In this document: positions 1-12,342 of the stretch, piece by piece
Position numbering within the stretch: the first letter of the stretch is position 1
Layout: each line of letters starts with the position of its first letter
Notes under the pieces: generated by a model
What the model was told of the DNA's origin: nothing
The model's database searches: none
What the model saw: the letters and a program-made list of their open reading frames with translations, nothing else
Made by a program: the position numbers and the translations under genes
Assembly (NCBI GenBank): GCA_944323725.1
Contig: CALUTP010000040.1
Coordinates: forward strand, 7,041 to 71,040
Length of the DNA: 64,000 bases
DNA from: Candidatus Gastranaerophilales bacterium
GTDB taxonomy: Bacteria; Cyanobacteriota; Vampirovibrionia; Gastranaerophilales; Gastranaerophilaceae
Direction: 5' to 3'

Positions 1-1
1 T

Positions 2-139
2 TATTACCATAATGAAGAAGCCCAAGAAAAGTTGATCAATAACATTACTGACATTATCGGGGAAGACGAAGTAATGACAAAAGTTCAATTAATACATCAG
101 CATGATCCTGATCGTGGAATATTAAAAATTCTCGAGTAA
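2..139 (+). CDS. 3' end of an ORF entering from upstream of the window (hypothetical, last 45 aa only)
   Basis: Frame 2 is open from the window edge to TAA at 137-139 (...EDEVMTKVQLIHQHDPDRGILKILE*). It converges on the resolvase gene and overlaps its 3' end by 18 nt. No recognisable motif. Confidence 0.3.
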   Translation, partial: YYHNEEAQEKLINNITDIIGEDEVMTKVQLIHQHDPDRGILKILE

Positions 140-769
140 TTTATTTTCATATAGTTTTACCAATTTATAAAAAGAAGTTGGTTTCATCCCCAGTCTTTTC
201 ATTGCTTCCCTAGCTGTAATTTTTTTATCTTTCCAAGTATTGTAAGTTTCTATCCAATTACTCGGATACTCAATAGCAGGTCTTCCAAGTTTTTTTCCTT
301 TAGCTTTGGCACAGGCAATTCCTTCAGCTTGTCTTTGTTTAATAAAAGCTCTTTCTTGTTCTGCAACATACCCCAGTAGCTGTAGAACTATATCGGAGAT
401 TACCTGCCCTATAAGGCCATCGGTTTTTGTAGTATCAAGCAAAGGCAGATCAATTACCCTTATATTAGCTCCGATTTCACCTGTAATCTCTCTCCATTCA
501 TCGCAGATTTGCTTGTAATTTCTTCCAAGTCTATCAATAGATTTGATAACAAGCAGATCTCCTTTTCTGAGTTGAGCTTTCATAGCCTGATACATAGGAC
601 GATCAAAATTTTTTCCGCTTAACTTATCAATAAAAATATCTCGTTCATTAATTCCCATATCAAGCATAGCCTGAACTTGTCTGTCTTCATTCTGATCTGC
701 AGAAGACACTCTACAGTATCCAAAAGTTTTTGCTTCCATAAAAAAATTCCTTTTCGTTTCTATTCTCAT
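122..769 (-). CDS. small serine recombinase (resolvase/invertase family) with C-terminal HTH
   Basis: Catalytic-serine motif GYCRVSSADQNEDRQ, plus LVIKSIDRLGRN and a C-terminal HTH (ITAREAMKRLGMKPTSFYKLV). The real start may be the internal Met at ~739 (MEAKTFGYCRVSS). Confidence 0.9.
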   Translation of the reverse strand: MRIETKRNFFMEAKTFGYCRVSSADQNEDRQVQAMLDMGINERDIFIDKLSGKNFDRPMYQAMKAQLRKGDLLVIKSIDRLGRNYKQICDEWREITGEIGANIRVIDLPLLDTTKTDGLIGQVISDIVLQLLGYVAEQERAFIKQRQAEGIACAKAKGKKLGRPAIEYPSNWIETYNTWKDKKITAREAMKRLGMKPTSFYKLVKLYENKLLENF

Positions 770-782
770 TATACAATATATA

Positions 783-891
783 TTCGTAAATGACTATATA
801 TAAAACGAATATTCGTAAAACAAATTAACAAGATTAACGAACAATATTTAAAGCAAAAATCTTGTGATCGTAAAGGTTTACTTTTACGAAA
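783..891. promoter_or_regulatory. cluster of TTCGTAA(A) half-sites in both orientations; candidate res/recombinase-binding and promoter region
   Basis: TTCGTAAA at 783-790 and 812-819. Perfect 12-bp palindrome ACGAATATTCGT at 805-816. ATCGTAAA at 867-874 faces inverted TTTACGAA at 883-890. All lie directly upstream of the resolvase start. Confidence 0.4.
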
Positions 892-964
892 GGTGGTGGA
901 TTGAATTTGTATTTTTAATTATTTCTTGTATATTAGAAGAAAAATCAAAAAGGAATTTTTATAG

Positions 965-1858
965 ATGGATAGAACTAATGCACCAAAAATTTTATACAAA
1001 TATATGCCTGCAGAGACTGCATTGAAGGTGTTACAAACTCAAACTATCCGATTTAGTGATCCAAAAAAATTTAATGATCTGTACGATTCAGATGTGCCTA
1101 TAAAATTGCGTGTAAATAGAAATCTGACTTCAAAAGATTTTATTGCTATGCTAGAAGAATTTGAAAAAAATCCAGAATTGAAGTTATATTTGCCTGCAGG
1201 GATGACGCTAGAAAAAATGAAAGGATTAGTTAAACAATATAGATATTCAATAAATCCAGTAGATCACCTTAATAAAACTTTGGATAATATGAGAAAAAAT
1301 ATGCGGGTACTTTCGTTGTCCTCTAATAGAGATAATTTATTAATGTGGGCACATTATAGTAATAATCACAAAGGTATAGTTATAGGTTTTAAAAGAAATT
1401 CGGATTTATTAAAGTATGCAACACCTGTTTTATATAGTAAAAATATCCCTGTAATAGACGGAAAACTATTAAGAGATTTTAAATTGAGCACTAAAGAGGC
1501 TTTAAGAGAATTACAAGTCCTTTTTCAAACAAAGAGTCTTGATTGGGAGTATGAGCAGGAATGGAGATGTGCACTTGATGTAGTAAAACGTTATGAATAC
1601 TGTTTAAGGGAAAATCCAAACTTAAAATATCAATCATCGGTGCTGTATGAAGAATTATTCTGCCAGAAGGAATTTGTTCATATCCCTTTCTATCCAGAAG
1701 ATGTTCAGAGTATATATCTAGGAGCAAATATAAATATAATAGATGAAAACATAATCATTAATATCATAAGAGAAAATTATCCCAGAGTAAGTATTTTCAA
1801 AGCTTCTCGTAATGAAAATAAATTTATGTTGGATTTTAAGCGTATCTTAGATTCTTGA
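965..1858 (+). CDS. DUF2971-like protein (uncharacterised family)
   Basis: N-terminal LYKYMPAETALKVLQTQTIRFSDPKKFNDLYDS and central LLMWAHYSNNHKGIVIGF match my recollection of the DUF2971 signature (LYHY...FNDP.E ... aHYa..h.G). An AAAGGAA SD-like element lies upstream. Confidence 0.65.
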   Translation: MDRTNAPKILYKYMPAETALKVLQTQTIRFSDPKKFNDLYDSDVPIKLRVNRNLTSKDFIAMLEEFEKNPELKLYLPAGMTLEKMKGLVKQYRYSINPVDHLNKTLDNMRKNMRVLSLSSNRDNLLMWAHYSNNHKGIVIGFKRNSDLLKYATPVLYSKNIPVIDGKLLRDFKLSTKEALRELQVLFQTKSLDWEYEQEWRCALDVVKRYEYCLRENPNLKYQSSVLYEELFCQKEFVHIPFYPEDVQSIYLGANINIIDENIIINIIRENYPRVSIFKASRNENKFMLDFKRILDS

Positions 1859-1929
1859 TGTGAATATGTACAAATCAAACAATTGAAATTTATATAATAG
1901 TAGTAAAGTAATAAAAAAGGTAAAGGATT

Positions 1930-3465
1930 ATGAGCTTAGATAAAGCAAATATATTTAAACTTAATGAGGAAGAATTTGAAAAATATAAACAAGAACCTTT
2001 CTTAGACTGTTTTGAAAGTACAAAAATGTTCGCAAAAGCTTTAAAAAATGATATTGATACAAAGGAGACACCACATTCTTTACTTCTTTCTGCAGAGTAT
2101 GGAATGGGAAAAACTTTTTTTAGCACAAGATTTACGCAGTATCTTAAAAAATGTAAGTACGAAGTAATATATTTCAGTGCTTGGGAAAATGATTATATGC
2201 AGAACCCTTTTCTTGCATTTTCAAAAGCTATAATTAGTTATGCATATAACAGATTTACGGAAGAAAAATATGTAAAAAAATTATCAAATTTATTTGAAGC
2301 TGCTGAAAAAATAGTTAGTGCAATGTCATTAACATCAAGAATTGGTATACCAGGAGTCGCTGAAATGGATGTTACCATTGATGCTAGTAGATTACTTGAG
2401 TCATTTAAGGAAAATTGTGATCCAATTATTGATTTTAGAAGCAAACTTACATCATTTATTTCTAAAATTCCTAAAAAGAAACTAATTGTTATAGTTGATG
2501 AACTTGACCGTTGTAGACCTGACTATGCAATGAAAACTTTAGAATGTATAAAACATTTTTTTGATATTGAAGGTTTATTTATTATTTTACCTACAAATAA
2601 AAATGCTTTAAATAATTGTATAAAAGCATTATACGGAATTGAGAATAGTAATTTAAATGGTAAAGAAAATTATTTTCAAAAGTTTTTTAATGATGAAAGA
2701 GTTTTACAATCACCAACTGAAGAAGATTATTTATATGTTGTAAAGCAATATATATGTGAAGACAAATTAAAAGAGGCTTTGGACAAACATCTGCTATCAG
2801 GTGTAGCTGCTGATTATAATAGCATTCAAAATTTACAGATATGTTTTGCGAAATATGCTTACAAGGCAAAATTAACAGTTAGAGAAGTTAAAGATTTTTC
2901 ATTAGAACTAGTAAGAATCTGTAATAATTTTTTTGAACCAATAAGAACAGAATGGTTAGCATGTATATTTGCTAATAAAAATAAAGAAAGAGGTGCTCAT
3001 TTTCAATATCCGGTAAATAGTGAACATTGTTTTTATTGTGAACAGTATAAGAATTTAGAGAATAGTAGTAATGGTAAACAAGTACTGTTAGATTTAAGTT
3101 TGTGCAATTCGAAATTGAGAGAAATAACGTTGCTGAGAGAATGGAATTTTGGTAATTATGATACATACCAGAAATATATTAATTTAATTAATAAAATTAA
3201 ATCACCACAGAAAAAATTTAAAACATATACAGATGTTTATAATTTTTTGGAATATCTTATTACTGATATTACAGCACTTGCGACTTTAGTTTCAAACAAT
3301 CGTGAATTAGAAAATCATTTGAATAAAATTAAATCAGTTTTTGAAGAACATAAAAATGCAATACTTAAGTATCAAAGAAAATATGGCTCTGATGATGATA
3401 TTAGTAGAAGGCAAAAATATATAGATGTTGTTAATAAACCTGAATTAATATATTTTAATGTTTAG
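1930..3465 (+). CDS. KAP-family P-loop NTPase
   Basis: Walker A is SAEYGMGKTFF. Walker B plus the KAP-typical segment is LIVIVDELDRCRPDYAMKTLECIKHFF. It is 511 aa with no obvious TM insertion. It sits 71 bp downstream of the DUF2971-like gene on the same strand. Confidence 0.8.
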   Translation: MSLDKANIFKLNEEEFEKYKQEPFLDCFESTKMFAKALKNDIDTKETPHSLLLSAEYGMGKTFFSTRFTQYLKKCKYEVIYFSAWENDYMQNPFLAFSKAIISYAYNRFTEEKYVKKLSNLFEAAEKIVSAMSLTSRIGIPGVAEMDVTIDASRLLESFKENCDPIIDFRSKLTSFISKIPKKKLIVIVDELDRCRPDYAMKTLECIKHFFDIEGLFIILPTNKNALNNCIKALYGIENSNLNGKENYFQKFFNDERVLQSPTEEDYLYVVKQYICEDKLKEALDKHLLSGVAADYNSIQNLQICFAKYAYKAKLTVREVKDFSLELVRICNNFFEPIRTEWLACIFANKNKERGAHFQYPVNSEHCFYCEQYKNLENSSNGKQVLLDLSLCNSKLREITLLREWNFGNYDTYQKYINLINKIKSPQKKFKTYTDVYNFLEYLITDITALATLVSNNRELENHLNKIKSVFEEHKNAILKYQRKYGSDDDISRRQKYIDVVNKPELIYFNV

Positions 3466-3576
3466 TAAAATTTAAATATTTTTACATGGCTTTAAAACTT
3501 AGGTTAGTTAAGATTTTGTAGCAAAAAATAATATTTAGTATTTTTCTAATTCCAGATAGTAAAAATGGAATGAATA

Positions 3577-5025
3577 ATGAAAGAAAAAGCTGTTATATAT
3601 GCTAGGGTCTCATCTTTATCCCAAGAAAAAGATGGTTTCTCTATTCCTGCACAAATTGATTTATTAAATAGTTATGCTGAAAAGAATAATATTGAAGTAG
3701 TGAAGATCTTTGATGAAGCTGAAACAGCAAAACAAGCAGGTCGAACAAAGTTCAATGCAATGTTAAAATTTCTTTCGCAGCACAAAGATGTATCCACTAT
3801 ACTTGTTGAAAAAACGGATCGCCTTTATCGAAACTTCAAAGATTATGTTGAGTTAGATGTTGATAGAACAAGATATAAGGTTTGTCTTGTAAAAGAAGGA
3901 GTAGTATTGTGTAATAATTCAAATTCCCATGAAAAATTAGTTCATGGGTTAAAGGTTTTGTTGGCCAAAAACTTCATTGATAATTTGAAGGAAGAAACTC
4001 AAAAGGGACGTTTAAAAAAAGCTAGTGAAGGTTACTTTATAGGGCAAGTCCCTTATGGGTATAAAAAGTTGGATACAAAAACTACAGTTATTAATTCAGA
4101 TACAGCACCTTTTGTGAGACGAGCTTTTGAATTATATGCTGATGGTTATTCTATAGAAAAAGTTAGAGAAACGCTAAAAGATGAAGGGTATATATATAAT
4201 AAATCTTCTATAGCAATTTCTAAGGGACACCTGCATAAGATGCTTAAAAATGTAGCATATATTGGAATTATCGATTTTAGAGGGAAATTTTACGAAGGGA
4301 AGCATGAACCTATTGTGTCAAATGAACTTTTTAATAAAGTACAAAGACAGTTTAAGAAAGACTATAAGCCAGATAAAATATCTAAGCACAATTTTGCATT
4401 TACAGGGCTAATAACCTGTGCAGAATGTGGATGTGCTATTACTGCTGAAATTAAAAAAGGTAAGTATATATACTATCATTGTACCGGTTATAAAAAAATT
4501 TGTTCTCAAAAAGAATTTATAACCGAAGAAAAACTTATTGAGCAATTTGATGCTGCTGTAAGAGCAGTAACAATAAGTGAAAAGCATTTTGAATATATAA
4601 AAAAAGGACTAAGGGAAAGTTTTATAGATAAAAAGAAATATGATTTGGAACATTATGATGTAATGGTAAAAAATGTGAAAAAGATTCAAAACAGACTTGA
4701 TAAGTTATACTTAGATAAACTTGATGGGGAGATCAGTACTGAAGTATGGAGAGAAAAGCATGCTAAATGGACTGAAGATCTTGAAGTGTTGCAATCGAAA
4801 ATATCAGCATATTCAAAAGCTAGTAAAAAATATTATGAAGAAGGTATTAAATATATCGAACTGTTAAAAAACGTGTATTCAATATACTCTGCACAATCTA
4901 ATTCTGAAAAAGCAAAACTTATAAAAATATTACTATCGAACTGTAAACTAAGAGATAAAAAACTAAGCTATGACTATAATAAACCATTTTCTTATTTCGT
5001 CAAAAACGACCAATGTCATAAAAAA

Positions 5026-5052
<27 letters not shown>
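3577..5052 (+). CDS. large serine recombinase (integrase type)
   Basis: N-terminal AVIYARVSSLSQEKDGFSIPAQ catalytic domain, a recombinase domain (YGYKK...), a zinc-ribbon CAECGCAITAEIKKGKYIYYHCTG, and a coiled-coil C-terminus. The last 27 nt overlap the tRNA-Arg gene on the opposite strand. Confidence 0.9.
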
Positions 5053-5099
<47 letters not shown>

Positions 5100-5171: not shown

Positions 5172-6068
5172 TTAGCATAAACATTTTTTAGCGCAAGTCG
5201 TTTTTGTTTTTATTAATGGAATGAAGCCAAAAAGCATATATTTTTTCTTGTTCGGATAATAATAAAATATTTTCATTAATGTTATACCACAAAATTCTAT
5301 CTTTTCGCGTTTTACCATCTTAAACCCATTAAGTACAGGTAAATTCATTTTTTCTGCAAATTCTACCATTTCTTTTTCAGATTCCATTGCATCTAAAACA
5401 TGTTTTTGAGATTTAGTTGAAACTATTGAATGTTCATTCCTTCTGTAATAATAAGCACAATCTGGAACAGTTACCAAGCCTGACAAATAATACATTACCT
5501 TTATTGACCAGCACATATCCTCATAATATCTACCTACAGGGAAAGATAACCCTAAATTCAATAAACTTTCTCGCTTATAAATCTTATTCCATACATAATT
5601 ATATTTTGGAATTTTTACTGCTTTTATTTTAGCTACTGCATCTGTTATAAAATTTTCTTTTTTATATTCTACTTTATATTTTTTAATTTTATTTCCACAT
5701 CGAATTATATTACCACTTGCGATTTCTGCATTATATTTTTTAGCTGATTCATATAACTTTTCATAGAAATTTAAATCTACCCAATCATCTGAATCAACAT
5801 AACCTACATATTCTCCAGCGGCTACTTTTAAACCGTCATTTCGGGCTGCTGACAAACCTTGATTCTGTTTATTTATAATTTTTATTCGACTATCTTTTTT
5901 TGCATATTTTTCTAATATATCTAGTGAATCATCCTTTGAACCATCATTTACACATATAATCTCAATATCATGAAGACTCTGATTTACCAAAGAATCCAAA
6001 CATTTTTCCAAATATTTTTCAACATTATATACTGGTACTATAATTGATACTTTGGGACTATTATTCAT
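5172..6068 (-). CDS. glycosyltransferase family 2
   Basis: VSIIVPVYNVEKYLEKCLDSLVNQSL, IEIICVNDGSKDDS and YVDSDDW are classic GT-A/GT2 motifs. Confidence 0.9.
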   Translation of the reverse strand: MNNSPKVSIIVPVYNVEKYLEKCLDSLVNQSLHDIEIICVNDGSKDDSLDILEKYAKKDSRIKIINKQNQGLSAARNDGLKVAAGEYVGYVDSDDWVDLNFYEKLYESAKKYNAEIASGNIIRCGNKIKKYKVEYKKENFITDAVAKIKAVKIPKYNYVWNKIYKRESLLNLGLSFPVGRYYEDMCWSIKVMYYLSGLVTVPDCAYYYRRNEHSIVSTKSQKHVLDAMESEKEMVEFAEKMNLPVLNGFKMVKREKIEFCGITLMKIFYYYPNKKKYMLFGFIPLIKTKTTCAKKCLC

Positions 6069-7051
6069 TATAAACCTTTCTTAAATTTCCATCTTATTTT
6101 TGATACAAGAGTTTTTAATTTTATTCTTAAATAAGTTTCACTTTTATTTATTTCAATATATTTCCACCAGCCATTTGAATAATTAGAAACTATAAAATTT
6201 TTAAACTCCTGTAAATTCTTATAATAATCATCCTTTAAACTATCATCACACTTACAATACCAAGACATTGCTTTTGAAAAATATTTATTTATTACCTGAT
6301 TAATATATTTATCAGTAAGAGTTAAGCTTTTAAGTAATTCTTCAGCTGCATAAAAATTTAATATTGGAGAAATTGATTTTTTAGTATAAGAAGAAGTGAT
6401 AGCTCCTGCGCGGTTTTTTACATAATAATATAAATCCTCATTGATAATATAAATATTCTTAGCAGTTAAAATAGCTTTTAAATAAAATAACTGATCTTCA
6501 CCATCTTTTATTTCTTGAAATTTAATATTATTATCTTCAACAAATTTTCTTCGATAAAGCTTACACCACGCAGTAGGAGGAAATTGAAACAAATCATTTT
6601 CATAATCTTTTCTTGACAAAAGACGCTCTTTAAGTTTCGGATTAATTTTATTTACACTATACATCCCTCGACTTACACTTTGGCCTTTAACCGAATAAGC
6701 CCCAAATACAACCATATCAGAATTTGTTTCACTAATTTTTTGGATAGTTTTTTCAATTAAAGTCTTATCAATCCAATCATCAGAATCCACAAACAATAAA
6801 TATTCACCAATCGCAGCAGCCATTCCAACATGACGAGCTGAAAATAATCCACCATTAGGTTTAGAAATAATTTTTATTCTCGTGTCTTTATTTGCATACT
6901 CAGTTAAAATTTGGAGCGAGTTATCTGTAGAACCATCATTAACACATATAATTTCAATATCTTTAAATGACTGCGAAATAATACTTTCAAGACATTTTTC
7001 TAGATACTTCCCAACATTATATACCGGAACTATTACCGAAACTTTAGCCAT
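6068..7051 (-). CDS. glycosyltransferase family 2
   Basis: VSVIVPVYNVGKYLEKCLESIISQSF, IEIICVNDGSTDNS and FVDSDDW. It overlaps the downstream GT2 gene by 1 nt, suggesting an operon. Confidence 0.9.
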   Translation of the reverse strand: MAKVSVIVPVYNVGKYLEKCLESIISQSFKDIEIICVNDGSTDNSLQILTEYANKDTRIKIISKPNGGLFSARHVGMAAAIGEYLLFVDSDDWIDKTLIEKTIQKISETNSDMVVFGAYSVKGQSVSRGMYSVNKINPKLKERLLSRKDYENDLFQFPPTAWCKLYRRKFVEDNNIKFQEIKDGEDQLFYLKAILTAKNIYIINEDLYYYVKNRAGAITSSYTKKSISPILNFYAAEELLKSLTLTDKYINQVINKYFSKAMSWYCKCDDSLKDDYYKNLQEFKNFIVSNYSNGWWKYIEINKSETYLRIKLKTLVSKIRWKFKKGL

Positions 7052-7116: not shown

Positions 7117-7446
7117 TTAAAAAGAATAATTATTATTATATCTTATGGATGTAAATAAATTATAAAATATTTTCGTTAAATTTTCATCATTATACATTGC
7201 TTCAGTTAATTCATTAATCATCTGCTCATTTGATGTAGAAGAAAAATAATATAATTGCCAGCTCTCTACTTGCAATGCTTCTGAAATTTTTTGAAGTGTT
7301 TCAATCGAAGGGGCAAATTTCCCCGTTTCAATATAACTTAAACTTGGAGGCTCAATACCTATAAGTTCAGCTAATCTCTCTTGTGTAAACCCCTTTGATT
7401 TCCTTATTAACTTAATTCTAGTTCCTAATTGTTTTTTTATATCCAT
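7117..7446 (-). CDS. XRE-family HTH transcriptional regulator (paralog of 36142-36456)
   Basis: MDIKKQLGTRIKLIRKSKGFTQERLAELIGIEPPSLSYIETGKFAPSIETL is an XRE-type HTH. I start it at ATG 7446, because the upstream part of the 132-aa ORF is hydrophobic junk. The C-terminal ...MYNDENLTKIFYNLF resembles ...MQNDENLTQKMYRYF in the paralog. Confidence 0.85.
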   Translation of the reverse strand: MDIKKQLGTRIKLIRKSKGFTQERLAELIGIEPPSLSYIETGKFAPSIETLQKISEALQVESWQLYYFSSTSNEQMINELTEAMYNDENLTKIFYNLFTSIRYNNNYSF

Positions 7447-9009: not shown

Positions 9010-9138
9010 ATACAAACTCCAATAAAAGATTCTTAATTTAAAACTTAATGTTATATTTATTTGAAATTGTTGGCAATTTTATTATGTTTTCGTTACAATT
9101 AAAATATAGATAAGAAATGGAAAGAGGAATTAGAAATT

Positions 9139-11751
9139 ATGCTAACCGGAAATGAAATAAGAAAGTTATATTTGGATTATTTTAAAAATAAACACCAGCA
9201 TACAGTAGTTGAAAGCTCAAGTTTAGTACCTGACAATCCTACAGTATTATTGACTACAGCTGGAATGTTACAATTTTTGCCTATATTTTTAGGTATTGTT
9301 AAATCGCCTTATGACCCAGCACGTGCAACATCTTGTCAAAAATGTGCAAGAGCAGGCGGGAAAGACAGTGACATCGAAAATGTAGGACGTACTCCAAGAC
9401 ATCATACTTTCTTTGAAATGTTAGGTAATTTCTCTTTCGGAGATTATTATAAAAAAGAAATTATCCCTTGGGCTTGGGAATTTGTAACAGAAGTTTTGAA
9501 ACTTGATAAAAATAGACTTTGGATTACCATTTTTGAAACTGATGATGAAGCATATGAAATTTGGAGAAGCGTTGGAGTACCTGCTGAAAGAATTAAAAGA
9601 AAAGGTAAAAAAGATAATTTCTGGGGCCCTCCAGGAGCATCAGGATCTTGCGGACCTTGTTCTGAAATACATTACGATTTAGGCGAGCAATATAAATGTA
9701 ATGACCCTAGAGGCTGTGGAATAGATACCTGCGAATGCGATAGATGGGTTGAAATTTGGAATCTTGTATTTACAGAATTATATCAGGATGAAGAAGGTAA
9801 TCAATCACCATTGGAAAGTAAAAACGTTGATACCGGTATGGGATTGGAAAGAATTACTATGGTATGTCAGGGGGTTGCTTCAACTTTTGAAACCGACCTT
9901 TTAAAACCAATATTGGATAAAGTTTCGGAAATGAGCGGCGTTCCTTATAAAAAATCAGAAAAAACAGATGTGTCATTGAGAATCATTACAGACCATGCAA
10001 GATGTGTTTCTTTCTTGATTTCTGACGGAGTAATTCCTGGAAATGAAGGAAGAAGTTATGTGTTGAGAATGATTTTACGTCGTGCATTACGTCATGGTAA
10101 AATTCTCGGCATGGATTTGCCATTTTTATACAAACTTGTTGACGTTGTAGTTGAAAACTACGGAGAAGCTTATCCTGATTTGGTTAAGAATAAACAAAAA
10201 ATTATTGATACAATTAAAAAAGAAGAAGAAAGATTTGCAAAAACCCTCGATAGAGGCTATAAAATGTTAGATGAATTTATAGCTGATAAAAAAGATATTG
10301 ATGGTGAGAGTGCATTCAAACTTTATGATACATTCGGATTTCCTCTTGAATTAACAAAAGAAATTGCAGAAGAAAACGGATTAAAAGTTGATGAAGCTGG
10401 TTATAAAGCAGCTATGCAGGAACAAAAAGACAGGGCGAAGTCGGCAACAGCTAAAATAAGCGTAACTGGTGATATGAAATATGCAAAATTGGAAGATGAA
10501 GTCGGGTCTACTGAATTTGTCGGATATGAAGAAAATGAGTGCGATGCCAAAATTCTTGCAACAATAGAAGGAGATGGATATGTTGATATCGTGCTTAATA
10601 AAACACCATTCTATGCAGAGTGCGGAGGTCAAATAGGTGATTGCGGTTTTATTGAAAATGAAAACCTTAAAGCAGAAGTACTTACAACCTTCAAAGTTAA
10701 CAATTTATTCGTTCACCGCTCAGAAGTAATTAATGGTGAAATTACAATAGGTGAGATAGTAAAAGCTAAAATAGATGTCCCTCGTCGTGAGCAAATAAGA
10801 CTTCACCACACATCAGCTCACTTATTACAATCAGCTTTAAGAAAAGTTTTAGGGGAAGAAGTACACCAAGCAGGTTCTCAAGTCGAACCTGATAGAATGC
10901 GTTTTGACTTTACATTCTCAAGAGCAATGACCCCTGAAGAACTTGTTAAAGTTGAAGAAATTCTAAATAACTGGGTAGCTAAAGGATTAAATGTTCATAC
11001 TGACGTAATGGATATTGAACAAGCAAAACTCACCGGTGCTACAGCATTATTTGGTGAAAAATATGATGAAGTGGTAAGAGTCGTTTCAATTGGAAATGAA
11101 ACTTGCATATCAAAAGAATTTTGTGCAGGAACTCATGCCAGAAATACTAGAGATCTTAGACTTGTAAAAATTGTATCAGAAGGAGCAATTGCAGCAGGTA
11201 CTAGGCGTATAGAACTAGCAGTCTCAAGATCAGCATTTGACTTTATGAACGCAAAAGTTAAAGAAATGGATAAACTTTCTTTGATGTTCAAGACTCACTA
11301 TGATGAAATTATAGAACGTGTAGAAAAACTTCTGGAAGAAAATAAAGAACTACAAAAAGAATTAACTGCCGCAAAAGAAGAAAATGCTAGAGCAAAATTT
11401 GCAACATTCTTATCTAAAGCTCAAGACATTGATGGTGGAAAACTCTTTATTACAAAAGTTGAAGATGTCGATGGAAATGCTCTAAAAACAGGTATAGAAT
11501 TTGCATCACAAAAACTTGGAGAAAGCATTATCGTTCTTGCTTCATCAAAAACAGTTGCAGTAAAAGTATCAGACAGTTTTGTGAAAAAAGGTGTAAATGC
11601 TGGAAAAATTGTTGGAGAAATAGCACGTTTTACCGGAGCAAACGGTGGTGGAAGACCTAATTTTGCACAAGGCGGTATAAAAGATGCTTCTAAGTTAAAT
11701 GAAATTCTAGAAAAAGTTGAAAATGAATTAAAAAATTGTCAACTTGTGTAG
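9139..11751 (+). CDS. alaS: alanine--tRNA ligase
   Basis: 870 aa. RHHTFFEMLGNFSFGDYYK, WNLVFTE, the editing-domain HTSAHLL and CAGTH motifs, and a C-terminal DHHA1-like tail. Confidence 0.97.
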   Translation: MLTGNEIRKLYLDYFKNKHQHTVVESSSLVPDNPTVLLTTAGMLQFLPIFLGIVKSPYDPARATSCQKCARAGGKDSDIENVGRTPRHHTFFEMLGNFSFGDYYKKEIIPWAWEFVTEVLKLDKNRLWITIFETDDEAYEIWRSVGVPAERIKRKGKKDNFWGPPGASGSCGPCSEIHYDLGEQYKCNDPRGCGIDTCECDRWVEIWNLVFTELYQDEEGNQSPLESKNVDTGMGLERITMVCQGVASTFETDLLKPILDKVSEMSGVPYKKSEKTDVSLRIITDHARCVSFLISDGVIPGNEGRSYVLRMILRRALRHGKILGMDLPFLYKLVDVVVENYGEAYPDLVKNKQKIIDTIKKEEERFAKTLDRGYKMLDEFIADKKDIDGESAFKLYDTFGFPLELTKEIAEENGLKVDEAGYKAAMQEQKDRAKSATAKISVTGDMKYAKLEDEVGSTEFVGYEENECDAKILATIEGDGYVDIVLNKTPFYAECGGQIGDCGFIENENLKAEVLTTFKVNNLFVHRSEVINGEITIGEIVKAKIDVPRREQIRLHHTSAHLLQSALRKVLGEEVHQAGSQVEPDRMRFDFTFSRAMTPEELVKVEEILNNWVAKGLNVHTDVMDIEQAKLTGATALFGEKYDEVVRVVSIGNETCISKEFCAGTHARNTRDLRLVKIVSEGAIAAGTRRIELAVSRSAFDFMNAKVKEMDKLSLMFKTHYDEIIERVEKLLEENKELQKELTAAKEENARAKFATFLSKAQDIDGGKLFITKVEDVDGNALKTGIEFASQKLGESIIVLASSKTVAVKVSDSFVKKGVNAGKIVGEIARFTGANGGGRPNFAQGGIKDASKLNEILEKVENELKNCQLV

Positions 11752-11812
11752 AAAAATGTTTTAAAAATCCAAGAAATTTAAATGTAGTATAAATTTTATA
11801 AAAAGAGAAATT

Positions 11813-12250
11813 ATGACAATATTAAAAATAGAAAAATTACCACATAACAAGTTTGTACCTGAATATAAAACAGAAGGTGCAGCAGGGATGGACTTATGTG
11901 CAGCAATTTCTGAGCCTATTATATTAAAACCGCTTGAAAGAGCTCTTATTCCTACAGGATTAAAAATAGAATTAGAACATGGATATGAAGCTCAAATTAG
12001 ACCTCGTTCAGGACTTTCAATCAAACATGGTATTACTCTTATAAATTGTGTAGGAACCATTGATGAGGATTATCGAGGCGAAGTTTGTATCCCAGTCGTT
12101 AATCTATCCAATGAGACTTATACAATTCAGCCTGATGAACGAATTGCGCAAATGATTATTGCAAAAGTAGAACAGGCTGTAATTGAAGTCACAACAGAAT
12201 TAACAGCAACAGTTAGAGGTTCTGGCGGATTTGGCTCTACTGGTAAATAA
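11813..12250 (+). CDS. dut: dUTP diphosphatase
   Basis: AGMDL, RPRSGLSIKHGITL, GTIDEDYRGE and C-terminal RGSGGFGSTG motifs. Confidence 0.95.
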   Translation: MTILKIEKLPHNKFVPEYKTEGAAGMDLCAAISEPIILKPLERALIPTGLKIELEHGYEAQIRPRSGLSIKHGITLINCVGTIDEDYRGEVCIPVVNLSNETYTIQPDERIAQMIIAKVEQAVIEVTTELTATVRGSGGFGSTGK

Positions 12251-12342
12251 TTAATTTTTATTACTTAATTTTTTCTCTAATCAGGCAATTTTATTTTATT
12301 ACGGATTTTACATATAATAACTTCAAATTAGGAGAAAATTAT

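What the first reader, a model, noticed from the sequence alone, without database searches (positions are those of the whole stretch)
965..3465. DUF2971-like + KAP P-loop NTPase gene pair as cargo of a serine-recombinase element: candidate defence/abortive-infection module
The two genes are co-oriented with a 71-bp gap. They have no housekeeping role and lie between a resolvase (122-769) and a large serine integrase (3577-5052) next to a tRNA gene. The KAP NTPase has intact Walker A (GMGKT) and Walker B (VDELDRCRP) motifs but no visible TM insertion. The partner carries the N-terminal YKY...FSDP..FND and HY....KG signatures I associate with DUF2971. Both families are poorly characterised and, from general knowledge, recur in variable or mobile regions. 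I do not recognise this pairing as a named defence system.
Basis: partly seen in the sequence, partly recalled or inferred. Interest (0 to 1): 0.7.

Follow-up and report, generated by a model that had tools for sequence, protein, structure and literature searches.

The report
Two solo defence genes on mini-element
A 4.9-kb mobile element beside a tRNA gene in an uncultured, probably gut bacterium carries two predicted anti-phage genes that sit together only in this element, so it is a new example of known gene families, not a new two-gene immune system.

Summary

Each gene matches a separate single-gene PADLOC candidate over nearly its full length: DUF2971 = PDC-S31 (2e-48) and KAP = PDC-S20 (1e-54). 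Both Pfam families already have tested single-gene anti-phage members: Aristaios (DUF2971, ART fold) and EF_KAP with three gut KAPs.

The pair is not conserved:
- Of 79 genome loci with KAP relatives, only the near-identical element has DUF2971.
- KAP orthologues at 75%, 65% and 50-57% identity lack DUF2971.
- DUF2971 drops from 97% to 41% identity with nothing in between.
- None of 80 DUF2971 loci has a KAP.

The resolvase-DUF2971-KAP-integrase block (window ~159-5014) is 95-100% identical in genomes whose core genes are only 78-80% identical. It therefore looks like a recently transferred element, sitting beside other defence genes (AbiH, a type IIG R-M enzyme, SspD).

Verdict: two independent defence cargo genes on a serine-recombinase element. 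They are new members of known kinds. Defence function is inferred, and neither mechanism is known.

The parts
1..139 (+). 3' end of an AbiH-family gene. The full 364-aa gene is seen in the identical metagenome contig L001:371-1465. It is resident defence cargo just outside the mobile block.
   Evidence: (PF14253 AbiH), (PADLOC AbiH, 1.8e-15). It is only 85% identical to the L168 copy, against 97-100% for the block.
122..769 (-). Small serine recombinase (resolvase + HTH). The longest ORF is 215 aa; the gene called in L001 is 205 aa. It is divergent from the DUF2971 gene. Its last ~12 codons lie outside the conserved block.
   Evidence: (PF00239, 2.4e-28).
159..5014 (.). Mobile block of about 4.86 kb: resolvase, DUF2971, KAP and large serine integrase. 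It is 95-100% identical in four other assemblies. It is bounded by the hexamer ACCAAT at 159-164 and 5009-5014; reading these as crossover sites is tentative.
   Evidence: (identity profile; flanks fall to background and core genes are 78-80% identical).
965..1858 (+). DUF2971 protein, 297 aa. It matches PADLOC PDC-S31 and shares its Pfam family with Aristaios. It is a predicted DarT-like (HYE-clade) ADP-ribosyltransferase with the YEQEWR (ExE) motif intact.
   Evidence: PMC11381338; PMC12522546.
1930..3465 (+). Soluble KAP-family P-loop NTPase, 511 aa, matching PADLOC PDC-S20. The NTPase domain covers residues ~34-264. Residues 265-511 form an all-helical C-terminal region with no Pfam match. 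A variable patch lies at residues ~390-424.
   Evidence: PMC13552941.
3577..5052 (+). Large serine recombinase (integrase), 491 aa. Its last 9 codons are encoded by the tRNA gene.
   Evidence: Resolvase + Recombinase + Zn_ribbon_recom; weak CcrB/XisF similarity.
5026..5099 (-). Host tRNA-Arg(TCT). The element abuts its 3' end. The acceptor stem differs from L003/L004 by compensatory changes, so the tRNA belongs to the host and not to the element.

Best explanation
Window ~159-5014 is a compact (~4.9 kb) integrative element. It consists of a small serine recombinase, two cargo genes and a large serine integrase. It is inserted about 11 bp beyond the 3' end of a host tRNA-Arg(TCT) gene. The host is probably a gut Gastranaerophilales/Melainabacteria bacterium, and the site is a defence hotspot.

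The two cargo genes are most likely independent single-gene anti-phage modules, not a two-component system.

**(1) The DUF2971 protein.**
- It is a DarT-like ADP-ribosyltransferase with intact catalytic motifs.
- By analogy with Aristaios, I infer it is activated on infection and ADP-ribosylates a nucleic acid or an essential protein.
- That would block phage transcription or replication in an abortive-infection-like way.

**(2) The KAP protein.**
- It is a soluble P-loop NTPase whose fold is closest to RdrA and to ORC/Cdc6-type AAA+ ATPases.
- By analogy with EF_KAP, I infer that ATP hydrolysis by the Walker A/B site drives an activity of the conserved but locally hypervariable helical C-terminal region.
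- That region is the likely sensor or effector.

**Shown here:** family membership, intact motifs, mobility of the block, lack of co-occurrence, and the defence-gene neighbourhood.

**Inferred only:** the anti-phage phenotype, the targets, the triggers and the site of recombination.
For: **Each gene matches a single-gene defence model.**
- Near full-length PADLOC hits to PDC-S31 (2.3e-48, residues 1-292) and PDC-S20 (1.2e-54, residues 11-468).
- Pfam assignments are above the curated cut-offs, and the catalytic residues are invariant.

**The pair is decoupled.**
- KAP has a continuous series of homologues at 98, 92, 75, 65 and 58% identity and below.
- DUF2971 jumps from 97% to 41% identity, even in an exhaustive phmmer search of 1.84 billion representatives.
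- Only 1 of 79 species-representative KAP loci has an adjacent DUF2971, and that locus is the same element.
- None of 80 DUF2971 loci has a KAP.
- KAP at 75% and 65% identity sits on a tyrosine-integrase element next to a SoFic-like gene.
- KAP at 50-57% identity sits next to an XRE HTH gene.
- DUF2971 at 41% identity is solo. At 31% identity it is embedded in a type I R-M operon.
- The 61 scanned co-oriented neighbours of DUF2971 relatives are heterogeneous.

**The block is mobile.**
- It is 95-100% identical to L003, L004 and L168, while alaS and neighbouring core genes are 78-80% identical.
- Its left flank differs in each genome: AbiH; AbiH plus a type IIG R-M enzyme; or VWA-PP2C-kinase plus SspD.

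**Structure.**
- The best PDB match of the KAP model (pLDDT 86) is RADAR RdrA, at E 5e-7.
- The top matches of the DUF2971 model (pLDDT 79) are DarT, CteC and Tpt1.

**Literature.**
- Aristaios is a single-gene DUF2971 system (PMC11381338, PMC13064643).
- DUF2971 is predicted to be a DarT-like ART (PMC12522546).
- KAP NTPases are single-gene defences that depend on Walker B and on the C-terminal region, and small serine recombinases mark defence genes (PMC13552941).
Against: - No experiment exists for PDC-S20 or PDC-S31 themselves. Neither name appears in any paper searched.
- The DUF2971 fold matches are not significant: best E is 0.09 and TM is at most 0.44.
- EF_KAP has transmembrane helices and this KAP has none, so its mechanism may differ.
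- Within this lineage the two genes are always together and co-oriented. No predicted terminator lies between them. Functional cooperation in this element therefore cannot be excluded.
- The att sites were not defined, because no empty site was available.
Confidence: 0.7

Rival explanations
1. The two genes form a real two-component system recently assembled in this lineage. The KAP ATPase would act as a phage sensor or regulator, like RdrA in RADAR or AriA in PARIS. It would control the DUF2971 ADP-ribosyltransferase as the effector.
For: - The genes are co-oriented with a 71-bp gap and no predicted terminator between them.
- They are always together in the element lineage.
- The best structural match of KAP is RdrA, the ATPase partner of an enzymatic effector.
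- One distant DUF2971 gene overlaps by 4 bp an upstream AAA_15/AAA_21 ATPase gene inside an R-M operon.
Against: - The pair does not co-occur outside near-identical copies of the element.
- The identity spectra of the two genes are decoupled.
- Both genes match single-gene PADLOC models over their full length.
- Tested members of both families work as single genes (PMC11381338, PMC13552941).
- KAP has its own Shine-Dalgarno-like AAGGA, and a TATAAT lies in the gap.
- Only 1 of 64 DUF2971 neighbours has a Walker A motif.
Confidence: 0.12
2. The genes serve the element rather than the host. They would act as addiction or stabilisation modules, or as exclusion functions against competing mobile elements such as plasmids or other islands, with phage defence incidental or absent. 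PifA, the founding prokaryotic KAP, may work in this way.
For: - The genes travel with the recombinases as one unit.
- An ADP-ribosyltransferase toxin could stabilise an element.
- Weak PifA similarity, 5.9e-8.
Against: - No antitoxin-like partner such as a DarG macrodomain is present. Pfam and PADLOC find nothing of the kind in the block.
- KAP orthologues occur away from any serine recombinase in 71 of 79 loci.
- The neighbours are classical anti-phage genes: AbiH, a type IIG R-M enzyme, SspD and SoFic.
- Tested relatives restrict phage.
Confidence: 0.1
3. The genes are not defence genes at all. The DUF2971 protein would be a secreted or host-directed ADP-ribosyltransferase effector, as proposed for some Legionella members. 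The KAP protein would be a housekeeping or signalling NTPase carried along by chance.
For: About 18% of DUF2971 proteins were predicted to be effectors (PMC12522546). The biochemical functions of both families are unknown.
Against: - No signal peptide or TM segment is evident by hydropathy.
- Relatives are embedded in R-M operons and defence islands.
- Both genes match PADLOC candidates that were defined by embedding in known defence loci (bioRxiv 10.1101/2024.09.26.614923).
Confidence: 0.05

Closest known systems
Aristaios (Lactococcus plasmid pUCCL641_199; DUF2971; single-gene Abi-like system) and PADLOC candidate PDC-S31
   Same: - Same Pfam family (PF11185).
- Similar size (297 versus 316 aa).
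- Stand-alone gene on a mobile element.
- Predicted ADP-ribosyltransferase fold.
- Full-length match to the PDC-S31 model (PMC11381338).
   Different: - Different host phylum.
- The identity to Aristaios itself could not be measured.
- This protein's closest relative outside the element is only 41% identical.
- P39 and F40 of the FNDPF motif are replaced (FNDLY).
- No phenotype is known.
KAP P-loop NTPase single-gene defences (EF_KAP and three gut-metagenome KAPs; Andersen et al., PLoS Biol 2026) and PADLOC candidate PDC-S20
   Same: - KAP NTPase domain with intact Walker A and B motifs.
- A C-terminal region of about 250 aa with no known domain.
- Located next to a small serine recombinase.
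- Gut-microbiome origin (PMC13552941).
   Different: - No transmembrane helices, whereas EF_KAP has two.
- Divergent from, not co-transcribed with, the small recombinase.
- The sequence relation to the tested proteins is unknown.
RADAR (RdrA ATPase + RdrB deaminase)
   Same: RdrA is the best structural match of the KAP model (E 5e-7). An ATPase lies next to a nucleotide- or NAD-using enzyme.
   Different: - TM-scores are low (TMq at most 0.39).
- There is no PADLOC RdrA hit and no RdrB deaminase.
- The partner gene is not conserved.
DarTG toxin-antitoxin defence
   Same: The top fold matches of the DUF2971 model are DarT. The literature places DUF2971 next to DarT in the HYE clade (PMC12522546).
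   Different: - There is no DarG macrodomain antitoxin.
- There is no DarT HMM hit.
- The fold match is not significant.
QatABCD and PifA (known KAP-containing defences)
   Same: Weak similarity to the P-loop region of QatA (1e-9) and PifA (6e-8).
   Different: - The QatA equivalog score is 39 bits against a cut-off of 600.
- No QatB, QatC or QatD genes are present.
- The C-terminal half is different.
SCC-type islands moved by large serine recombinases, and defence islands stacked at one chromosomal site (for example 'Tandem mobilization of anti-phage defenses alongside SCCmec', PMC11470126; title and abstract seen only)
   Same: - A large serine recombinase with weak CcrB similarity (4e-33).
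- Insertion at one conserved chromosomal site.
- Variable defence cargo alongside.
   Different: - The target is the 3' flank of tRNA-Arg, not rlmH.
- The element is only about 4.9 kb.
- It has one large and one small recombinase.
- The Ccr equivalog cut-offs are far from met (115 versus 900 bits).

Membership tests
Pfam DUF2971 / PADLOC PDC-S31 (Aristaios-type single-gene defence) | Profile match above the curated threshold, and a full-length match to the PDC-S31 model | tested here: met
   PF11185 at 44.1 bits against a cut-off of 22. PDLC04990 at 2.3e-48 over residues 1-292 of 297.
Pfam DUF2971 / PADLOC PDC-S31 (Aristaios-type single-gene defence) | Conserved catalytic-type motifs: motif II Tyr and motif III ExE, as described in PMC12522546 | tested here: met
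   MWAHY (H130, Y131) and YEQEWR (E197, E199, R201) are invariant in 32 sequences and present here.
Pfam DUF2971 / PADLOC PDC-S31 (Aristaios-type single-gene defence) | ADP-ribosyltransferase fold | tested here: inconclusive
   AF2 model with pLDDT 78.8. The top Foldseek hits are DarT, CteC and Tpt1, but the best E is 0.089 and TM is at most 0.44.
Pfam DUF2971 / PADLOC PDC-S31 (Aristaios-type single-gene defence) | Acts as a stand-alone gene with no conserved partner | tested here: met
   The neighbours of relatives are heterogeneous and no KAP is found. This is genomic evidence only.
Pfam DUF2971 / PADLOC PDC-S31 (Aristaios-type single-gene defence) | Confers phage resistance | not testable with these tools
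   Needs cloning and phage challenge.
KAP P-loop NTPase / PADLOC PDC-S20 (KAP + C-terminal region single-gene defence) | KAP_NTPase profile above threshold with intact Walker A and B motifs | tested here: met
   PF07693 at 100.8 bits against a cut-off of 20. GMGKT and DELDRCRP are invariant. PDLC04959 at 1.2e-54 over residues 11-468.
KAP P-loop NTPase / PADLOC PDC-S20 (KAP + C-terminal region single-gene defence) | Transmembrane helices inserted in or next to the P-loop domain (typical of many KAP proteins and of EF_KAP) | tested here: not met
   The highest 19-residue hydropathy mean is 1.25, and the model is soluble. This is a soluble KAP subfamily.
KAP P-loop NTPase / PADLOC PDC-S20 (KAP + C-terminal region single-gene defence) | C-terminal region with no known domain fused to the NTPase | tested here: met
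   Residues 265-511 have no Pfam or NCBIfam hit and are all-helical with high pLDDT.
KAP P-loop NTPase / PADLOC PDC-S20 (KAP + C-terminal region single-gene defence) | Confers phage resistance that depends on Walker B | not testable with these tools
   Shown only for other KAP proteins (PMC13552941).
   Only 1 of 79 KAP loci and 0 of 80 DUF2971 loci carry both genes. The identity spectra are decoupled.
QatABCD | QatA equivalog score, and QatB/C/D neighbours | tested here: not met
   39 bits against a cut-off of 600. The neighbours are DUF2971 and an integrase.
RADAR | RdrA together with the RdrB adenosine deaminase | tested here: not met
   There is only structural similarity to RdrA. No RdrA or RdrB model was hit.
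DarTG | DarT together with an adjacent DarG macrodomain antitoxin | tested here: not met
   No macrodomain and no DarT or DarG hit in the block.
Integrative element mobilised by a large serine recombinase | Resolvase + Recombinase + Zn-ribbon integrase at one end, and the block transferred as a unit | tested here: met
   The block is 95-100% identical while core genes are 78-80% identical, and its borders are sharp.
Integrative element mobilised by a large serine recombinase | Defined attL/attR sites, and an empty attB or a circular attP | tested here: inconclusive
   Only a shared ACCAAT hexamer is seen at both ends. No empty site or circular junction was available.

The most novel reading that the evidence does not exclude
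In this lineage the soluble KAP ATPase and the DUF2971 ADP-ribosyltransferase may have been newly wired into a RADAR-like sensor-effector pair, in which an ATPase gates an NAD-using enzyme. The ~4.9-kb element with two serine recombinases may be a dedicated shuttle that drops defence cassettes at tRNA-Arg across Melainabacteria species.
Probability: 0.1. Interest if true: 0.6.

Novelty: new member of a known kind. Interest (0 to 1): 0.3.

Why it matters
If confirmed, the locus gives a clean natural example of how single-gene anti-phage modules are bundled and moved between species of uncultured bacteria (probably gut Melainabacteria) by a minimal serine-recombinase element at a tRNA hotspot.

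It also offers a soluble, TM-free KAP NTPase (PDC-S20) and a compact DUF2971 ADP-ribosyltransferase (PDC-S31) as tractable candidates for working out two mechanisms that are still unknown.

It does not reveal a new kind of immune system.

Tried and rejected
- **Two-gene system.** Rejected on the co-occurrence tests.
- **Another conserved KAP partner.** In the 50-57% orthologues an XRE HTH gene lies convergent to KAP. This looks like local synteny. The window's own HTH (7117-7446) is 40% identical to it but is 3.6 kb away.
- **General link between KAP and serine recombinases.** Only 8 of 79 KAP loci have one within 7 kb. Three of those appear, from gene sizes alone, to be IS607-like resolvase + TnpB pairs.
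- **Promoter and terminator scan.** Counts equal chance, so it is uninformative.
- **Sequence search of the PDB.** Nothing for DUF2971 and only noise for KAP.
- **Rfam.** Only the tRNA, with no ncRNA partner such as a ToxI- or retron-like RNA.
- **Repeat search for terminal repeats or att sites.** Only AT-rich chance matches.
- **Sequences of the tested proteins.** I could not get the EF_KAP or Aristaios sequences. No supplements are held and no accession was available.
- **Plasmid and phage collections.** Only distant relatives at 32% identity or less, and in the rows shown DUF2971 and KAP were never on the same record.
- **Literature on the PADLOC names.** No paper mentions PDC-S20 or PDC-S31.
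Full report
**1.

The ORF table shows the following genes:
- a 215-aa ORF at 122-769 (-);
- a 297-aa ORF at 965-1858 (+);
- a 511-aa ORF at 1930-3465 (+), 71 bp downstream of the previous one;
- a 491-aa ORF at 3577-5052 (+).

ARAGORN and Rfam place tRNA-Arg(TCT) at 5026-5099 (-), overlapping the end of the last ORF.

Pfam assigns the four proteins as follows:
- Resolvase (2.4e-28);
- DUF2971 (44.1 bits, cut-off 22);
- KAP_NTPase (100.8 bits, cut-off 20, residues 34-264);
- Resolvase + Recombinase + Zn_ribbon_recom.

In KAP these are G58, G60, K61 and D190-P197. In DUF2971 they are Y13, N37, D38, H130, Y131, E197, E199 and R201. Neither protein has a hydrophobic stretch long enough for a membrane helix; the highest 19-residue hydropathy mean is 1.25.

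**2. Each gene is already catalogued as a single-gene defence candidate**

- The DUF2971 protein matches PADLOC PDC-S31 over residues 1-292 (2.3e-48).
- The KAP protein matches PADLOC PDC-S20 over residues 11-468 (1.2e-54). It has only weak P-loop similarity to QatA and PifA, and the QatA equivalog score is 39 bits against a cut-off of 600.
- The 'S' series are PADLOC's single-gene candidates. This is my understanding of the naming, not something I saw stated. PDC candidates were defined by recurrent embedding in known defence loci (bioRxiv 10.1101/2024.09.26.614923).
- No paper in the library mentions PDC-S20 or PDC-S31 by name.

At the family level there is experimental work:
- Aristaios is a 316-aa DUF2971 protein from a lactococcal plasmid. 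It is a single-gene Abi-like system with a predicted ADP-ribosyltransferase fold, and it interferes with phage transcription (PMC11381338, PMC13064643).
- DUF2971 has been placed bioinformatically in the HYE clade of ARTs, next to DarT (PMC12522546).
- KAP NTPases fused to C-terminal regions of unknown function are potent single-gene defences. They need Walker B and the C-terminal region, and they were found because they sit beside small serine recombinases (PMC13552941).

**3. The pair is not conserved**

This is the central test, and it was run from both sides.

*Starting from KAP*
- Homologues form a continuous series at 98, 92, 75, 65, 58... % identity.
- I scanned one genome per GTDB species and kept 79 loci with 7-kb flanks. 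I searched them with a DUF2971 HMM. Only L009, the near-identical element, has an adjacent DUF2971. One distant locus (L046) has a weak hit 2.5 kb away.
- Full-length orthologues at 50-57% identity occur in MAGs labelled Gastranaerophilales, cyanobacterium, Bacilli or unclassified (L007, L010-L014). None has a DUF2971. The 1.1-kb space upstream of KAP in L007 holds no such ORF.
- The 75% and 65% orthologues (L170, L171) sit on a different element. It has a tyrosine integrase and an HTH_17 gene, and in L170 a SoFic-like gene lies just upstream of KAP.

*Starting from DUF2971*
- The word-indexed search found one cluster at 96% identity and then nothing above 31%.
- The exhaustive phmmer search of 1.84 billion representatives gave 97% and then 41%.
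- The 41% relative is a solo gene (L174).
- The 31% relative is embedded in a type I R-M operon (L173).
- None of 80 metagenome loci with DUF2971 relatives has a KAP-like ORF. Of these, 55 have at least 1.6 kb of flank on one side.
- The 61 scanned co-oriented neighbours fall into unrelated families, including KilA-N, MmeI/Eco57I/HsdS and PIN. Only 1 of 64 carries a Walker A motif.

The juxtaposition is therefore confined to one element lineage, and the two genes have separate evolutionary histories.

**4. The element**

- Window ~140/159 to ~5100 is 95-100% identical to L003, L004, L005, L006 and L168. The chromosomal genes to the right (alaS and others, window 9033-12256) are only 78-80% identical to L003 and L004. 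The flanks fall to background identity.
- The block (small recombinase, DUF2971, KAP, integrase) therefore moved recently between different species.
- The tRNA belongs to the host. Its acceptor stem is CCCTGG/CCAGGG here and CCCGAG/CTCGGG in L003 and L004, a compensatory change.
- The high-identity block begins at ACCAAT (159-164), inside the last ~12 codons of the small recombinase. The same hexamer occurs at 5009-5014, 11 bp beyond the tRNA 3' end and inside the last codons of the integrase. This fits an attP lying between the two convergent recombinase 3' ends in a circular form. A 6-mer is weak evidence, however, and I had no empty site.
- No terminal repeats and no ncRNA were found.

**5. 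The neighbourhood is a defence hotspot**

Left of the block, three genomes carry three different sets of genes:
- Here: AbiH. The window starts inside it, and the full gene is in L001.
- In L168: AbiH, then a 1053-aa type IIG R-M enzyme inserted exactly between AbiH and the block.
- In L003: VWA-PP2C-kinase and SspD, with a second PDC-S20 paralogue about 10 kb further left.

AbiH is only 85% identical between the window and L168, against 97-100% for the block. The left flank therefore appears to be older, resident cargo.

**6. Structure**

- The KAP model (pLDDT 86.2) has a P-loop domain with a disordered insert at residues 134-152. Residues 265-511 form an all-helical C-terminal half.
- Its best PDB matches are RdrA of RADAR (E 5e-7), then ORC/Cdc6, FtsH and HslU. 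TM-scores are low (TMq at most 0.39).
- The DUF2971 model (pLDDT 78.8) has no significant PDB match. Its top hits are nevertheless ART-fold proteins: DarT (E 0.09, TMt 0.41), CteC and Tpt1. This agrees with the literature but is not independent proof.
- Profile searches of PDB sequences found nothing useful.

**7. Most likely mechanism**

I commit, at about 0.7, to two autonomous cargo modules.
- DUF2971 would be an infection-activated ADP-ribosyltransferase that blocks phage transcription or replication, as proposed for Aristaios and as known for DarT.
- KAP would be an ATP-driven switch whose helical C-terminal region senses or acts on a phage component.
- That C-terminal region contains a patch (window 3101-3200, residues ~390-424) that is only 72% identical between elements that are otherwise 97-100% identical. 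A surface under diversifying pressure would look like this.
- The anti-phage function, the targets and the triggers are inferred, not shown.

The main rival, at about 0.12, is a lineage-specific sensor-effector pair of the RADAR kind. It cannot be excluded because the two genes are never apart within the lineage and no terminator is predicted between them. Against it, KAP has its own SD-like AAGGA and a TATAAT lies in the gap.

**8. Comparison and novelty**

- The genes are members of Pfam DUF2971 (PDC-S31) and KAP_NTPase (PDC-S20).
- They are not members of QatABCD, RADAR or DarTG, because defining partners or scores are missing.
- The KAP differs from EF_KAP in lacking transmembrane helices.
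- The element resembles SCC-type islands in principle but is much smaller and targets a tRNA flank.
- Overall this is a new member of known kinds and of modest interest. Its main value is as a well-delimited natural cassette for mechanistic work on two families whose mechanisms are unknown.

**Host.** Titles of the genome records that carry KAP orthologues name Gastranaerophilales, Melainabacteria and Vampirovibrio. The window's own taxon was not established directly.

Noticed in passing
window 1-139 (full gene in L001:371-1465): The window starts inside an AbiH-family gene (364 aa; Pfam AbiH, PADLOC AbiH 1.8e-15). It converges on the small recombinase and overlaps it by 18 bp. It is a third defence-type gene, lying just outside the mobile block.
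   Followed up: partly
window 3101-3200 (KAP residues ~390-424): Identity to the L168 copy dips to 72% here, while the rest of the element is 93-100% identical. This may be a hypervariable sensing surface or a small recombination tract in the KAP C-terminal domain.
   Followed up: no
L170 and L171 (KAP orthologues at 75% and 65% identity): KAP sits on an element of roughly 10 kb with a tyrosine integrase and an HTH_17 gene; L170 also carries a SoFic-like gene just upstream of KAP. The two contigs are circular permutations of each other, which suggests a circular or tandem form.
   Followed up: partly
L168:2242-6206, between AbiH and the block: A 4-kb cassette is inserted exactly at the left junction of the element, relative to the window. 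It holds a 1053-aa type IIG R-M enzyme plus 191-aa and 48-aa ORFs. The junction therefore seems to be a recurrent insertion point.
   Followed up: partly
L003:435-8164 and L020 (same 1-Mb contig, GCA_949290355.1): Left of the same element this genome carries SspD, a VWA-PP2C-Ser/Thr kinase trio (TerY-P-like by domain content) and a second PDC-S20 KAP paralogue (41% identity) about 10 kb away. The defence island is therefore larger than the element.
   Followed up: partly
window 5026-5099 versus L003/L004: The tRNA-Arg(TCT) acceptor stem differs by compensatory changes (CCCTGG/CCAGGG versus CCCGAG/CTCGGG). The rest of the tRNA is identical between these genomes.
   Followed up: yes
window 159-164 and 5009-5014: The hexamer ACCAAT marks both ends of the 95-100% identical block. 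It lies inside the last codons of both recombinase genes. Both C-termini are therefore encoded by flank DNA and would change on excision.
   Followed up: partly
window 5172-7051: Two tandem family-2 glycosyltransferase genes, about 69% identical to each other over ~280 nt, lie between the tRNA and an XRE HTH gene. L003 has no genes in this interval and L004 has a single GT2 gene. This looks like a variable glycosyltransferase locus beside the defence hotspot.
   Followed up: no
L173:4580-6846: A distant DUF2971 gene (31% identity) overlaps by 4 bp an upstream AAA_15/AAA_21 ATPase gene inside a type I R-M operon (hsdM-ATPase-DUF2971-hsdS-hsdR). A large serine recombinase is nearby. This may be a distinct ATPase + DUF2971 arrangement.
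   Followed up: no
L007, L011-L014: KAP orthologues at 50-57% identity are always followed, 7-9 bp away and convergent, by a 106-117-aa XRE-type HTH gene and then a ~220-aa gene (weak N_methyl and DUF6613 matches in L007). The window's HTH at 7117-7446 is 40% identical to that HTH.
   Followed up: partly
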